From a virus (Duplodnaviria; Caudoviricetes): a DNA stretch of 64,000 nt. The stretch is taken from positions 1 through 64,000 of the IMG/VR virus record IMGVR_UViG_3300037067_009690, one strand, 5' to 3'. The position numbers and the translations under genes are program-made. The notes under the pieces are model-generated. The model searched no databases and was not told the DNA's origin. It saw nothing but the letters and a program-made list of their open reading frames with translations. Numbering within the stretch: position 1 is the stretch's first letter; each line of letters opens with the position of its first letter. Below, in pieces: positions 37,098 to 64,000 of the stretch.

Positions 37098-37303
37098 CAG
37101 CTCTGCGCTCTGCTAATAGCCGCACTCTTCCGAGTGTGATTCCAGACCTTCAGTCGAAGGCCCGTGCGCGTCCAGGACCGGATTTCCTTCGTCGATATCA
37201 CAAGCCGTGCCGTCCAGCACCACTCCGTGTGGGGCGCAGGGTCCCCCACATACCACCCCTGGGTGGCCTTATGGTTTTTCCATGACTTCCACAGAACTGG
37301 CAT
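37097..37303 (-). CDS. Hypothetical Trp-rich protein
   Basis: RBS GGAGGAAAGGA. Confidence 0.5.
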   Translation of the reverse strand: MPVLWKSWKNHKATQGWYVGDPAPHTEWCWTARLVISTKEIRSWTRTGLRLKVWNHTRKSAAISRAQS

Positions 37304-41247: not shown

Positions 41248-41499
41248 TTAAGGGGATGGAATGCCATTGTTAGCCTCGCTGCGGCCGTCATTGGCCCATG
41301 ATCTCCATGCGTGCGCGGACACCGTCGCGTACAACGCGGCGCCGGGAATGAATCCCCACTGGCGGGTGACGCACGCGTACACGACCCACACGGCCTCTGT
41401 GGCCATGGTCACGGCCCACCCGACGGCGAGGCGCCGGCCGGTCAGCCACAGGCCGAGGCCACCGAGCCCGGACAGGACCCACGACCACCAGACGCTCAC
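41248..41499 (-). CDS. Small multi-pass membrane protein (PnuC/PQ-loop-like)
   Basis: WSWVLSGLG.LGLWLTGRR..VGW...EAVWVVYA..TRQWGFI. Confidence 0.6.
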   Translation of the reverse strand: MSVWWSWVLSGLGGLGLWLTGRRLAVGWAVTMATEAVWVVYACVTRQWGFIPGAALYATVSAHAWRSWANDGRSEANNGIPSP

Positions 41500-41888
41500 C
41501 GGGCCCATCCGGGTAGGTCTGGTGTCGCGGGGAGGCCATGCGCGGCGGGGTCGACGGGCGTGAGGCCGCCGTCGTCGTCGAGGAGCCACCATCCGGTGCC
41601 GAGCCACGCGGGGACGTCGGCGGGCTGGCGCGGGTCACGGAGGAGGATCCACCCGAGCGAGGCGGCACCCGGCCGGTCCTGATGCGCGGCCATGTGCAGC
41701 CGGTGGCACACATGCAGGCCGTTGCTGGCGACCCACGCCCCGGAGTGACTGCGGTGGACCCGGTGCGACCAGTCCGTCGCCCGGTGCCCGCCGTGGACCT
41801 CACACACGCCACCAGACCGGGACCGGACCAGGGCACGCGCCCGCCGCTCAGCAGCCGCGACAACCGCCCGCCGGGCCACCAACGTCAC
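41496..41888 (-). CDS. HNH-like endonuclease
   Basis: RSGGVCEV...SHRVHRSHSG.W.ASNGLHVCH..H. Confidence 0.65.
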   Translation of the reverse strand: MTLVARRAVVAAAERRARALVRSRSGGVCEVHGGHRATDWSHRVHRSHSGAWVASNGLHVCHRLHMAAHQDRPGAASLGWILLRDPRQPADVPAWLGTGWWLLDDDGGLTPVDPAAHGLPATPDLPGWAR

Positions 41889-42259
41889 GGCTGGTCCCCC
41901 TGGTGGCCGCAGTGGCAGCCTTCGGCGCAGCAGGTGTCTTGGCGGTCGGTGTCGCCGTCGGTGTCGTGAAGGAAAGCTGCATGCGGGCAGCGCGGGGTGT
42001 TAGGGCATAGCCATGGAGAAGGCCACGAGGCGTCCTCCTGGTATCCGCGGGTGCGGTGGGCGGTGACGGCGTCCAGGCACGTATCCAGGGCCCCGCGGTG
42101 GTCGCCGGCGCCGCCGCTGGCTACGACCAGCGCACCGTTGCGGCACGCGTCCTGCCGGTCGGAGTCGGTGACCTCCCAGAACCACACCAGCCAGCCCGCG
42201 GCCATCTCACGCCACACGCGCCCGCGCACCGGATGCTCGGCGTTTGTTGTGTCAAGCAT
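41885..42259 (-). CDS. Hypothetical protein
   Basis: Begins just after array unit C; C-terminal Cys/His cluster; GTGA overlap. Confidence 0.5.
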   Translation of the reverse strand: MLDTTNAEHPVRGRVWREMAAGWLVWFWEVTDSDRQDACRNGALVVASGGAGDHRGALDTCLDAVTAHRTRGYQEDASWPSPWLCPNTPRCPHAAFLHDTDGDTDRQDTCCAEGCHCGHQGDQP

Positions 42260-42274
42260 CTTTTTGTCTCACGT

Positions 42275-42350
42275 CTTTCGTGTGGATCCCCTGCCCTGCC
42301 CCGCCCGGCCAAGCCATGACTAGCCGCGCAGCGCCCAGCCACGCCATGCG
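42275..42350 (-). ncRNA. GGY-NN pentamer array unit C (candidate guide RNA)
   Basis: Minus strand: cgcAT ggcGT ggcTG ggcGC tgcGC ggcTA gtcAT ggcTT ggcCG ggcGG ggcAG ggcAG then GGGATCCACACGAAAG. Confidence 0.75.
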
Positions 42351-42353
42351 ACG

Positions 42354-42929
42354 TTATTGGCCCCCGATTTCACCGGTGTTCTCGTCAACGGTTTCCCCTG
42401 CAACCGTGACACGATCAGGCACACTAATACCCTGCGACTGTAGAGCAGCGACCAGGACATCGTATTTGTCGTCGACCTGGGTGACAGTTCTCCTGAGGTC
42501 AGCGATCTGGGTTTCATGCCGGTCAAGGACGGACGCCTGAAACACTAAGGCGTCAGTGAACGCGTCGATGCTCTTGCGTTGAGCGATGGATAGTTCGTTG
42601 CGGTCGACATGCGTGGTCGTCGCTACAGCTGACCGCATGCGGCGCCGGGCGCTTTTCTGGTAACCGCGGGCCTTAACTTCATGCTCGGATGCGTGGGCGA
42701 TCTTGTATCCTACTCCGCGGACGGCTATGAGCATCCTGGATCGTTTGGTGAGGAGTTCTTGTCCGGCGCGTGCGATGGGGGTGCGTGATGCGCCTTGTTT
42801 CGCTGGGTTGTAGCCGAGGAGTTCGGTGAGGGTGTCGTAGGTGATGATGTCGCCTGGTTTAAGTTCTGCGGCGTGGTCGTATATTTCGCGCCACCTTGCG
42901 CGTGCCCCGGATGATTTAAATGGTGCCAC
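42354..42929 (-). CDS. Accessory protein between array units (wHTH-like N-terminus plus coiled coil)
   Basis: RBS GAAAGGA before the GTG; LKPGDIITYDTLTELLG; C-terminal heptad region. Confidence 0.7.
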   Translation of the reverse strand: MAPFKSSGARARWREIYDHAAELKPGDIITYDTLTELLGYNPAKQGASRTPIARAGQELLTKRSRMLIAVRGVGYKIAHASEHEVKARGYQKSARRRMRSAVATTTHVDRNELSIAQRKSIDAFTDALVFQASVLDRHETQIADLRRTVTQVDDKYDVLVAALQSQGISVPDRVTVAGETVDENTGEIGGQ

Positions 42930-42939
42930 GATGTGGTTC

Positions 42940-43032
42940 CTTTCGTGTGGATCCCCTGCCGAGCCTCGCCGTGCCATGCCATGGCGCGCCACGCCCCACC
43001 TCGCCGTGCGATGGGCCGGAGTCGAACCGGCC
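42940..43032 (-). ncRNA. GGY-NN pentamer array unit B with 5' T-arm-like hairpin (candidate guide RNA)
   Basis: Minus strand: GGCCGG-TTCGACT-CCGGCC, then cgcAC ggcGA ggtGG ggcGT ggcGC gccAT ggcAT ggcAC ggcGA ggcTC ggcAG, then GGGATCCACACGAAAG. Confidence 0.75.
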
Positions 43033-43058
43033 ATACGACCATCACCGCAACACACCCG

Positions 43059-43724
43059 TCAATCCTGATCCCAGTCTGCCGCCGAAATACCCTCGACAAC
43101 AACAGGACCCAGATCAACAACACGCGCCCAGAATCGGCCATACCCGCCGCGCCTGAAATCACCGAGCCCAACGAACCGGCCCGCCCTGTCAGCGATGTCC
43201 ACCAACTCATCGACATCAACAACAGTCTCATCGGACAGGAAATGGCACGACAACCGCCACGACCGGAATATTGGCCTTACCCTGACGTTACGCGCTTGCC
43301 CGACTTTCACGGTCTGCCGAGACACGAAGTTGCTGTCTTCACACAGGACTTCCGCAGTAGCCCCGACCGGATACCCGTCTGAGTCTTTTCTCGGCCACTT
43401 GAACCCGAGTCTACATGTGAAGTCGATGAGGGTGAGTCCCCGTTCGATTTTCATACCGGATTTCGTCATGCGCGCTCCCTCGGTGAGGGATTTCGCGACG
43501 TTCCTGCCCGGTAGGACCGGTGACCCGTTGTGGTCTACGTACAGTCCGGCCGCGTATTCCAGCCGGCCGATTTCTTCGTAGTCGCTGATAGTTTTCGTGC
43601 GTTTCCCGGATACTTTCTTGAATACCTTGGTTCGTTCGTCGAGCGGGTCGGCGAGCGTGTCGCAGTGCATGAGTAGTGGTGTCTTGCCTTTTATGTCGAC
43701 TCGTACGTTACGCAATACGCCCAT
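43059..43724 (-). CDS. Stand-alone RAMP/Cas7-like RNA-binding protein
   Basis: N-terminal strand VRVDIKGKTPLLMH, RVRPIFRSW, and C-terminal Gly-rich loop VGLGDFRRGGYGRF typical of RAMPs. Confidence 0.75.
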   Translation of the reverse strand: MGVLRNVRVDIKGKTPLLMHCDTLADPLDERTKVFKKVSGKRTKTISDYEEIGRLEYAAGLYVDHNGSPVLPGRNVAKSLTEGARMTKSGMKIERGLTLIDFTCRLGFKWPRKDSDGYPVGATAEVLCEDSNFVSRQTVKVGQARNVRVRPIFRSWRLSCHFLSDETVVDVDELVDIADRAGRFVGLGDFRRGGYGRFWARVVDLGPVVVEGISAADWDQD

Positions 43725-43729
43725 CCCGT

Positions 43730-43795
43730 CTCTCGTGTGGATCCCCTGCCCTGCCTCGCCTCGCCAAGCCATGCCTGGCCACACCCTGCCCCGCA
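43730..43795 (-). ncRNA. GGY-NN pentamer array unit A (candidate guide RNA)
   Basis: Minus strand: tgcGG ggcAG ggtGT ggcCA ggcAT ggcTT ggcGA ggcGA ggcAG ggcAG then GGGATCCACACGAGAG. Confidence 0.75.
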
Positions 43796-43800
43796 TGCAC

Positions 43801-43806
43801 ATCATA
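43801..43806 (-). promoter_or_regulatory. -10 box TATGAT upstream of unit A
   Basis: Would place the start site at about 43794, the beginning of the pentamer run; no well-spaced -35 box seen. Confidence 0.45.
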
Positions 43807-63501: not shown

Positions 63502-63699
63502 CTACCGGCCCGTGGCCGCTGGCAGGTCGAACTCCCCGGCCTTGACGCCCGCGAGGAACGCCGCCCACTCGGCGGCGGTGAACGCCAGGACCGGGCCCCT
63601 CGGGTCCTTCGAGTCGCGGACCAGGGTCATGTCGCCGTCGCGGGCGACCTCGACGCAGTCCCCGGACATCGACGTAGTGGATTTCCGCCACACGATCAT
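63502..63699 (-). CDS. DUF397 domain protein
   Basis: WRKSTTSMSGDCVEVA...VRDSKDPRGPVLAFTAAEWAAFLAGVKAGEFD. Confidence 0.92.
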   Translation of the reverse strand: MIVWRKSTTSMSGDCVEVARDGDMTLVRDSKDPRGPVLAFTAAEWAAFLAGVKAGEFDLPAATGR

Positions 63700-63725
63700 A
63701 GGTTGTCCATTTCCGCCCCTTTGTT

Positions 63726-63766
63726 GGGTGGCCTCGCTGGCACGGCGCGGGCCAGCGAGGCCACCC
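63726..63766. other. 16-bp stem-loop directly upstream of the DUF397 gene
   Basis: GGGTGGCCTCGCTGGC-N9-GCCAGCGAGGCCACCC. Confidence 0.6.
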
Positions 63767-63903
63767 GCAATCATGCCATCAGAAAGTCCCGAGGGGATGC
63801 GGATGGTGCTGGAGTCGGTGCGCGAGGAGATTGAGGGGTATCGGGCGGATATTCCGGCGGGTGGCGCGCTGTATCCAATGTCCCCGGCTCGGGCTGGTTG
63901 ACC

Positions 63904-63932
63904 GTTCGGGTGAGACAGCATCTCACCCGAAC
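63904..63932. terminator. 12-bp stem-loop, possible terminator
   Basis: GTTCGGGTGAGA-CAGCA-TCTCACCCGAAC. Confidence 0.5.
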
Positions 63933-64000
63933 AGGTAACCACGGGGAATGCGGCAATGTGTTTTGACTTTCCGCCGCCCATTGGATAGGAATGCACTATC

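What the first reader, a model, noticed from the sequence alone, without database searches (positions are those of the whole stretch)
42291..43795. Variable NN dinucleotides may spell a gapped (non-contiguous) target code
Seen: the triplet is nearly constant while NN differs between units. A = GG,AG,GT,CA,AT,TT,GA,GA,AG,AG. B = AC,GA,GG,GT,GC,AT,AT,AC,GA,TC,AG. C = AT,GT,TG,GC,GC,TA,AT,TT,CG,GG,AG,AG. The last pentamer is always ggcAG. Plain tandem duplication would homogenise NN, so this variation suggests NN carries the information. Inference: concatenated NN, possibly with one skipped base between pairs (for example B: ACnGAnGGnGTnGCnATnATnACnGAnTCnAG), defines a DNA target. If the skipped base falls on codon position 3, targeting would tolerate synonymous escape. 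I found no match by eye in this window, but my search was not exhaustive.
Basis: inference. Interest (0 to 1): 0.9.

Follow-up and report, generated by a model that had tools for sequence, protein, structure and literature searches.

The report
Phage VIPR guide RNAs, gapped code

Summary
The 84-kb phage record has exactly three period-5 GGC-NN tracts of 9-11 units. All lie on the minus strand, at 43746-43795, 42956-43005 and 42291-42345. Each ends in GGCAG plus a shared 16-nt tail, GGGATCCACACGA[A/G]AG.

They belong to a VIPR system (bioRxiv 10.64898/2026.04.26.720920 and .720927).
- The gene at 43059-43724(-) matches the solved SUSP1 Vipr protein over its full length (E 1.9e-27). It keeps the GGY-binding residues and folds as a Cas7-like RAMP.
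- The gene at 42354-42932(-) is a homologue of the partner gene vap.
- Nine of 12 related viral loci carry same-strand GGY-NN tracts with different NN.
- Over 456 units, GGY holds 0.3-0.5 bits of entropy and NN holds 1.9-2.0 bits.

I found no target. No exact NNx match turned up in IMG/VR or the metagenomes, and there was no excess over controls in actinomycete genomes. The best self-match is 16/20.

A conserved tRNA-like minihelix at 43007-43049 precedes guide 2. This scan had already noted VIPR loci in at least 246 other genomes. Verdict: a new member of a known kind.

The parts
43801..43806 (-). Candidate -10 promoter hexamer TATGAT, about 6-8 nt upstream of the first repeat units of guide 1
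   Evidence: Read from the sequence. The consensus promoter scan found no full sigma-70 site, so this is inference only.
43746..43795 (-). vrRNA1 repeat tract: a degenerate TGC-GG unit, then 9 GGY-NN units (NN = AG GT CA AT TT GA GA AG AG)
43730..43745 (-). Shared 16-nt tail of vrRNA1 (GGGATCCACACGAGAG). Its 3' end serves as the ribosome-binding region 5 nt before the vipr ATG.
43059..43724 (-). vipr gene (221 aa): a RAMP/Cas7-like protein that would polymerise on the GGY units
   Evidence: PDB 36pp 'SUSP1 Vipr protein' E 1.9e-27 over residues 7-207. AF2 model pLDDT 94.5. Foldseek top hits are Csm3/Cas7. phrog_4652 E 1.9e-44. 58 homologues.
43007..43049 (-). tRNA-like minihelix (acceptor stem plus T-arm with GGTTCGA loop, discriminator A) between the vipr stop codon and vrRNA2
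   Evidence: 14 copies from this and 5 related loci align without gaps. 94% of cells are paired, 8 of 11 pairs carry compensatory changes, and 0/500 shuffles reach this. ARAGORN and Rfam do not call it.
42956..43005 (-). vrRNA2 repeat tract: 10 units (NN = GA GG GT GC AT AT AC GA TC AG)
42940..42955 (-). Shared tail of vrRNA2 (GGGATCCACACGAAAG), running into the ribosome-binding site of vap
42354..42932 (-). vap gene (192 aa): N-terminal winged-helix-like domain plus a long coiled coil
   Evidence: 51% identical to the gene after the guide array in L004. Homologues follow vipr in 9 of 12 related viral loci. hhalign prob 96.4%, E 1.3e-9 to the gene after vipr in a Felixounavirus. AF2 pLDDT 82.6. 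Weak wHTH fold hits, E about 1e-2.
42291..42345 (-). vrRNA3 repeat tract: 11 units (NN = GT TG GC GC TA AT TT CG GG AG AG), two of them degenerate (TGC, GTC)
42275..42290 (-). Shared tail of vrRNA3 (GGGATCCACACGAAAG)
41496..42259 (-). Two downstream genes (a 124-aa ORF and an overlapping HNH endonuclease gene). They are probably co-transcribed but are not conserved with the system.
   Evidence: No homologue in any related locus. HNH assignment: phrog_740 E 7e-23.

Best explanation
This is a type II-like VIPR (Viral Interference Programmable Repeat) locus of an uncultured actinomycete phage.

Layout: one minus-strand transcription unit reads vrRNA1 - vipr - tRNA-like minihelix - vrRNA2 - vap - vrRNA3 - two unrelated genes.

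Shown for the homologous SUSP1 system and inferred here: Vipr protomers bind one per GGY unit and form a helical filament. Each GGY is flipped into protein pockets and each NN dinucleotide is presented for pairing. The filament binds double-stranded DNA whose sequence is complementary to NN-x-NN-x..., with one skipped base per unit, and silences transcription there. The three guides would read 9-11 dinucleotides (18-22 bases). The skipped base would usually fall on the codon wobble position of a gene in a competing phage, plasmid or satellite.

Inferred from sequence: the winged-helix/coiled-coil Vap assists. The guides in front of vipr and vap double as 5' leaders, because their tails contain the ribosome-binding region. 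The minihelix probably recruits host tRNA-processing enzymes to free the 5' end of vrRNA2.
For: - Protein: full-length match to the solved SUSP1 Vipr (E 1.9e-27). The residues that paper .720927 shows binding GGY or DNA (SUSP1 H17, K33, R39, R138, D177, W178, R179) align to H20, K36, R42, R150, D189, F190 and R191 here. All but F190 are invariant in 9-29 homologues.
- Fold: the model is confident (pLDDT 94.5) and its top fold hits are Cas7/Csm3 RAMPs.
- RNA: only three period-5 GGC tracts occur in 84 kb, and each flanks vipr or vap on the coding strand, with a shared tail.
- Relatives: same-strand GGY-NN tracts with unrelated NN occur in 9 of 12 related IMG/VR loci. They also occur in one of three genome loci (L018; L016 and L017 showed none) and in the cultured phages LittleE and MakoManhole.
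- Variability: entropy is 0.32/0.45/0.49 bits for GGY against 1.92/1.99 bits for NN over 456 units.
- Partner gene: vap is syntenic in 9 of 12 loci and is homologous to the Felixounavirus gene that follows vipr.
- Self-targeting: none above 80% NN match, as the paper reports for its systems.
Against: - No natural target was found for any of the three guides.
- The three guides share more NN than chance.
- Several units depart from GGY (TGC, GTC, GCC).
- The tail is only 16 nt and none of the three own guides has a structured 3' cap, unlike the SUSP1 pseudoknot.
- Expression, Vipr binding and the 1-nt skip were not tested for this locus, and the type assignment could not be checked against the authors' tree.
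Confidence: 0.9

Rival explanations
1. The locus is a VIPR system, but these three guides are decaying or idle. They would be diverged duplicates with degenerate GGY units that no longer have (or never had) a matching target, kept mainly as leaders for vipr and vap.
For: - No target was found in any collection.
- The guides are related to each other.
- Three units break GGY.
- The tails are fused to ribosome-binding sites.
Against: - The published work also left many guides without a target: 21 of 41 SUSP1 guides and 19 of 63 type III guides.
- The GGY frame and the tail are kept at 89-100% while NN drifts, which indicates selection on the scaffold.
- vipr and vap are intact.
Confidence: 0.07
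2. The tracts are repeated translational leaders bound by a ring or filament RNA-binding protein, in the manner of TRAP on (G/U)AG-NN repeats. GGC would be the only recognised element and NN a free spacer with no targeting role.
For: - Each tract sits directly in front of a gene, and its tail carries the ribosome-binding region.
- Period 5 with 9-11 triplets resembles a TRAP site (my own knowledge).
- No target was found.
Against: - The adjacent protein is a Vipr homologue, not TRAP.
- In relatives most tracts lie in arrays that do not precede any gene.
- NN composition is near uniform (47% G+C) in genomes of 62-71% G+C.
- For the homologous system, NN reprogramming changes the target.
Confidence: 0.02
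3. The tracts are structural DNA or RNA features (G-rich quadruplex-forming repeats, or cassette recombination sites) unrelated to guidance.
For: GG runs spaced by 3 nt could form two-tetrad quadruplexes. The two cassette genes have lower G+C than their flanks.
Against: The strand-specific association with vipr across distant phages and the direct structural evidence for GGY-Vipr contacts in the homologue explain the pattern fully. No recombinase is associated.
Confidence: 0.01

Closest known systems
Type II VIPR system of Escherichia phage SUSP1 / Felixounavirus (bioRxiv 10.64898/2026.04.26.720920, .720927, 2026.10.15.759431; PDB 36pp)
   Same: - Homologous Vipr (31% identity, E 1.9e-27) with conserved GGY-binding residues.
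- Homologous vap gene directly downstream.
- Guides of 9-12 GGY-NN units followed by a constant tail.
- One guide upstream of vipr.
- Phage-borne, with no self-target.
   Different: - Y is almost always C here (T in SUSP1).
- The guides are interleaved with the genes: one before vipr, one before vap, one after vap.
- The tail is 16 nt and merges with the next gene's ribosome-binding site instead of forming a roughly 40-nt pseudoknot.
- A tRNA-like minihelix is present.
- The host is a high-G+C actinomycete.
- No target is identified.
Actinophage VIPR loci in cultured phages (Mycobacterium phage LittleE gp34/gp33, Gordonia phages MakoManhole gp78/gp77 and Trine), annotated only as hypothetical or DNA-binding proteins
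   Same: - Vipr 37-44% identical.
- The LittleE and MakoManhole loci, which I fetched, carry GGC-NN tracts on the same strand and tRNA-like T-arm elements after the tails; the Trine locus was not fetched.
- vap follows vipr.
   Different: LittleE carries five tracts, each with a structured 3' element. The window's locus has only three tracts, and none of them has its own minihelix cap.
Class 1 CRISPR backbone (Cas7/Csm3 filament on crRNA)
   Same: The RAMP fold is shared (Foldseek E about 1e-7 to Csm3). One protomer binds per repeat of the guide, and a thumb breaks the guide-target duplex periodically (papers).
   Different: There is no CRISPR array, no Cas5/Cas6/Cas10 or adaptation genes in the locus, and no spacer-repeat structure. 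The guide is 2 paired bases per 5 nt rather than 5 per 6.
TRAP-RNA recognition in Bacillus (11 (G/U)AG triplets with 2-3 nt spacers); my own knowledge, considered first
   Same: Period-5 triplet repeats in an mRNA leader next to a ribosome-binding site, bound by a protein oligomer with one subunit per triplet.
   Different: No TRAP homologue is present. In TRAP sites the spacers carry no information, whereas in VIPR they are the information.

Membership tests
VIPR system | Vipr protein: a stand-alone RAMP (RRM core, G-loop, thumb) of about 20 kDa, homologous to SUSP1 Vipr | tested here: met
   phmmer E 1.9e-27 to PDB 36pp_D over residues 7-207. AF2 pLDDT 94.5. Foldseek best hits are Csm3/Cas7. 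The protein is 221 aa.
VIPR system | Residues that hold GGY and DNA in the SUSP1 structure (H17, R138, D177, W178, R179; K33, R39) | tested here: met
   They align to H20, R150, D189, F190 (aromatic kept), R191, K36 and R42. H20, K36, R42, R150, D189 and R191 are invariant in alignment A3, and all but K36 and R150 (nearly invariant) are invariant in A2.
VIPR system | vrRNA: 9-16 tandem YNNGG units with conserved GGY and hypervariable NN, on the vipr strand in flanking non-coding DNA | tested here: met
   Three tracts of 9-11 units. Family-wide entropy is 0.3-0.5 bits for GGY and 1.9-2.0 bits for NN.
VIPR system | Invariable 3' tail after the repeat tract, structured (pseudoknot) in the SUSP1 clade | tested here: inconclusive
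   A constant 16-nt tail is present on all three tracts. It is short, unstructured and runs into the next gene. Relatives carry a tRNA-like minihelix after the tail.
VIPR system | Accessory vap gene next to vipr | tested here: met
   P0002 homologues follow vipr in 9 of 12 related loci. hhalign prob 96.4% to the Felixounavirus gene after vipr. The model shows a winged-helix-like N-terminus.
VIPR system | Carried by a virus or provirus | tested here: met
   IMG/VR record of 84,249 bp, 91% complete. Portal 40% identical to Streptomyces phage portals.
VIPR system | Guides have natural targets at >=80% NN match under the 1-nt skip rule, and none in their own genome | tested here: inconclusive
   Own genome: best match 16/20 for one guide, others <=68%. 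Exact NNx scans of IMG/VR and the metagenomes gave 0 hits. In 401 and 21 actinomycete genomes there was no excess of independent hits over the reversed-pattern control.
VIPR system | vrRNAs are expressed as roughly 100-nt RNAs, co-purify with Vipr, and repress a reporter in an NN-dependent way | not testable with these tools
   This needs small-RNA sequencing, pull-down and reporter assays.
TRAP-type triplet-repeat leader | A TRAP (MtrB) homologue encoded in the genome | not tested
   No Pfam hit above threshold for the three locus proteins, and the adjacent protein is Vipr. The rest of the genome was not searched for MtrB.

The most novel reading that the evidence does not exclude
In this actinophage clade, VIPR guides are matured by the host's tRNA-processing enzymes at conserved tRNA-like minihelices. 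That would be a natural counterpart of engineered tRNA-guide arrays. The guides placed directly in front of vipr and vap would also act as leaders, so that Vipr loading on its own mRNA feeds back on translation. The text of the three VIPR preprints does not mention tRNA-like elements.
Probability: 0.3. Interest if true: 0.5.

Novelty: new member of a known kind. Interest (0 to 1): 0.3.

Why it matters
The locus shows that the newly described VIPR guide code extends to high-G+C actinomycete phages, in a compact layout where guides are fused to the leaders of the system's own genes. It also adds a covariation-supported tRNA-like element as a likely processing signal. That gives a simple three-guide system to test in Streptomyces-type hosts. 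It does not change the concept, which has been in print since 2026 and which this scan has already met in hundreds of genomes.

Tried and rejected
- **First working idea (before).** I read the tracts as a repeated regulatory leader, promoter or TRAP-like site with NN as free spacers, or as G-quadruplex repeats. I dropped this once the adjacent protein matched Vipr.
- **DNA similarity.** blastn of the locus against cultured phages gave no match. The tail motif and single-protein searches of IMG/VR gave nothing.
- **RNA callers.** Rfam and ARAGORN do not recognise the tracts or the minihelix.
- **Cross-targeting.** 36 guides tested against this genome and all fetched loci showed no excess at skip 1 over skips 0, 2 and 3.
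- **Host identification.** An SsgA-like protein and 20 kb of phage DNA searched against about 400 actinomycete genomes gave only short Lsr2-like matches, and no names are given for those genomes.
- **Best near-target.** Guide 2 matches 17/20, in frame, antisense to an alpha/beta-hydrolase gene next to tsaE in 16 of 21 genomes of one genus. I reject it as evidence because it is one orthologous site. The count is then four independent forward hits against four control hits.
- **Peptide decoding.** Reading the guides as codon first-two-letters gives strings such as L-D/E-S-V-I-I-A-T-P-S. I did not pursue resemblances recalled from memory, because the exact pattern is absent from both large collections.

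Full report
**Observation**

The window is the first 64 kb of an 84,249-bp IMG/VR phage record that is 91% complete. On the minus strand, three stretches upstream of three consecutive genes consist of GGC-NN pentamers followed by an identical motif. A scan of the whole record for period-5 GGC runs finds only these three: 43746-43790, 42956-43005 and 42291-42345, with 9, 10 and 11 units. The only correction concerns the first entry of two lists, which is not preceded by GGY. In list B, 'AC' is the end of a tRNA-like element. After the last GGCAG, all three tracts share GGGATCCACACGA[A/G]AG. The 3' end of this tail is the ribosome-binding region of the next gene: vipr starts 5 nt later at 43724 and vap at 42932.

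**How my reading changed**

My first reading was a repeated leader with GGC as the recognised unit and NN as spacer. A note from this scan named VIPR, and I then found and read the papers. VIPR systems consist of three parts:
- a stand-alone RAMP protein, Vipr;
- guide RNAs (vrRNAs) of 9-16 YNNGG units plus a constant 3' tail;
- usually one accessory gene, vap.

Vipr protomers bind one per unit and sequester GGY. The NN dinucleotides pair with DNA that has one skipped base per unit. In natural targets the skipped base usually falls on the codon wobble position. There is no PAM, either strand can be targeted, and no self-targets were seen.

**Membership, protein side**

The 221-aa product of 43059-43724(-) matches PDB 36pp, 'SUSP1 Vipr protein', at E 1.9e-27 over residues 7-207 against 4-194 of the chain. 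The SUSP1 residues shown to read G1, G2 and Y3 and to hold the DNA are H17, R138, D177, W178, R179, K33 and R39. They align here to H20, R150, D189, F190, R191, K36 and R42. All except the aromatic F190 are invariant in my alignments of 9 and 29 homologues. The AlphaFold model is confident (pLDDT 94.5), and its best structural matches are Csm3/Cas7 subunits of type III and VII CRISPR complexes.

The database gene call for this protein is 203 aa, starting at an internal Met. The homology to SUSP1 residues 4-17 supports the upstream ATG instead.

The next gene, 42354-42932(-), has no Pfam family. Several results identify it as vap:
- It is 51% identical to the gene that follows the guide array in the closest viral relative.
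- It has homologues directly after vipr in 9 of 12 related loci.
- It aligns by profile to the gene after vipr in a Felixounavirus of the SUSP1 group (prob 96.4%, E 1.3e-9).
- Its model has a winged-helix-like N-terminal domain and a long coiled coil. This fits the 'predicted DNA-binding' Vap of type II systems.

The 124-aa ORF and the HNH gene downstream have no counterpart in any related locus. I do not count them as part of the system.

**Membership, RNA side**

Twelve IMG/VR loci and three genome loci encode relatives of this Vipr. Nine of the twelve IMG/VR loci carry same-strand GGY-NN tracts around vipr. So do one of the three genome loci (L018) and the cultured phages Mycobacterium phage LittleE and Gordonia phage MakoManhole. 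NN differs from tract to tract.

Over 456 units, the entropy is 0.32, 0.45 and 0.49 bits at G, G and Y, and 1.92 and 1.99 bits at the two N positions. The GGY values are partly circular, because tracts were selected on GGY; the NN values are not. NN is 47% G+C in genomes of 62-71% G+C.

Within the window, the three tracts keep GGY at 89-90% but NN at only 40-61%. Guide 1 is nevertheless more like guides 2 and 3 than chance (p 0.012 and 0.003), so the guides arose by duplication and then diverged in NN. Duplicated guide segments are also visible in the closest relative.

**Layout**

The closest relative, L004 (Vipr 53% identical), reads: guide - vipr - (guide - tRNA-like element) three times - guide - vap. 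The window has a reduced form: guide 1 - vipr - tRNA-like element - guide 2 - vap - guide 3.

The tRNA-like element is a minihelix of an acceptor stem and a T-arm with a GGTTCRA loop and a discriminator A.
- Fourteen copies from six loci align without gaps.
- On the structure I specified, 94% of cells pair, and 8 of 11 pairs show changes on both sides. No shuffle of 500 reaches this, and slid controls fall to 29-58% paired.
- The window's copy at 43007-43049(-) is almost identical to one in L004, although the two Vipr proteins are only 53% identical.
- ARAGORN and Rfam do not call these elements.
- The text of the three VIPR preprints has no mention of tRNA. Other reports of this scan have described the same separators in other phages.

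That the minihelix serves as a cutting signal for RNase P/Z, or as a protective 3' cap, is inference.

A possible -10 hexamer, TATGAT, lies at 43801-43806(-). The consensus promoter scan found nothing.

**Targets**

- **Own genome.** At skip 1 the best match is 16/20 for guide 1, in the intergenic stretch 37103-37131 (1 of 100 order-shuffled controls reach it). Guides 2 and 3 reach at most 68%. Skips 0 and 2 are at control level, and skip 3 only finds the guides themselves.
- **Exact NNx scans of IMG/VR.** Guide 1 with 18 specified bases, guide 2 with 20 and 18, and guide 3 with 20 and 18 all returned no match.
- **Exact NNx scans of the metagenome collection.** Guides 2 and 3, each with 20 specified bases, returned no match.
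- **Mismatch-tolerant searches.** Guide 3 (22 bases, up to 3 mismatches) had 0 hits against 3 for the reversed control in 401 actinomycete genomes. It had 0 in a 21-genome genus chosen because its members hold the best matches to the phage's Lsr2-like gene. In that genus guide 1 had 1 hit against 8 control hits.
- **Guide 2 in the same genus.** It had 19 hits against 4 control hits. Sixteen of the 19 are the same orthologous site, a 17/20 in-frame match antisense to an alpha/beta-hydrolase gene beside tsaE. Counted as independent events, that is four against four, so I treat it as chance.

The large scans could only find perfect matches, and the published studies themselves left a third to a half of guides without a target. 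The negative result therefore does not weigh much against the family assignment.

**Verdict**

The feature is real. It is applied here by strong homology but is not demonstrated for these three guides. It is a new member of a known kind. This scan has already recorded such loci in at least 246 genomes.

Genomes flagged as unpublished by the tool (G008, G016, G031, G044, G374) support no claim made here.

Noticed in passing
window 43007-43049 (-); L004 2339-2658; L006, L010, L011, L012; L019, L020: A conserved tRNA-like minihelix (acceptor stem plus T-arm, GGTTCRA loop) separates VIPR guides in actinophage loci and is strongly supported by covariation. In the window it sits between the vipr stop codon and guide 2. 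The text of the VIPR preprints does not mention it.
   Followed up: yes
window 43670-43724 (-): The database gene call for vipr (203 aa) starts at an internal Met. Homology to SUSP1 Vipr residues 4-17, which include the GGY-contacting His, supports the ATG at 43724 (221 aa).
   Followed up: partly
window 43059-43724 (-), residues about 113-122 and 207-221: This Vipr has a 10-residue insertion (KDSDGYPVGA) and a C-terminal extension of about 15 residues that its closest relatives lack. The insertion is modelled with high confidence; the extension is not (pLDDT falls to 64-76 over the last ~20 residues).
   Followed up: no
L020 (Mycobacterium phage LittleE gp34/gp33), L019 (Gordonia phage MakoManhole gp78/gp77), Gordonia phage Trine gp41: Cultured, publicly annotated actinophages carry vipr (and, in the two fetched loci, vap) genes annotated only as hypothetical or DNA-binding proteins. 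The two loci I fetched, LittleE and MakoManhole, have unannotated GGC-NN guide tracts around them.
   Followed up: partly
window 63502-63996 (-): The Lsr2-like gene is the only part of 20 kb of phage DNA with nucleotide-level matches (75-84%) in actinomycete genomes, nearly all of 7-10 Mb. The best three belong to one 21-species genus, which is a clue to the host.
   Followed up: partly
L023 1501-1529 and orthologous sites in 16 of 21 genomes of one genus: Guide 2 matches 17/20 NN positions, in frame with the wobble base skipped, antisense to an alpha/beta-hydrolase gene next to tsaE. It is one orthologous site and is at the level of the reversed-pattern control.
   Followed up: yes
window 41496-42259 (-): A 124-aa ORF with no homologues overlaps by 4 nt the start of an HNH endonuclease gene directly after guide 3. 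Neither gene is conserved with the VIPR module.
   Followed up: partly
all GGY-NN tracts (own, L004-L020): NN dinucleotides are 47% G+C and close to uniform in base use, although the surrounding genomes are 62-71% G+C. The last unit before the tail is biased to AG, GA, AA or AT.
   Followed up: partly
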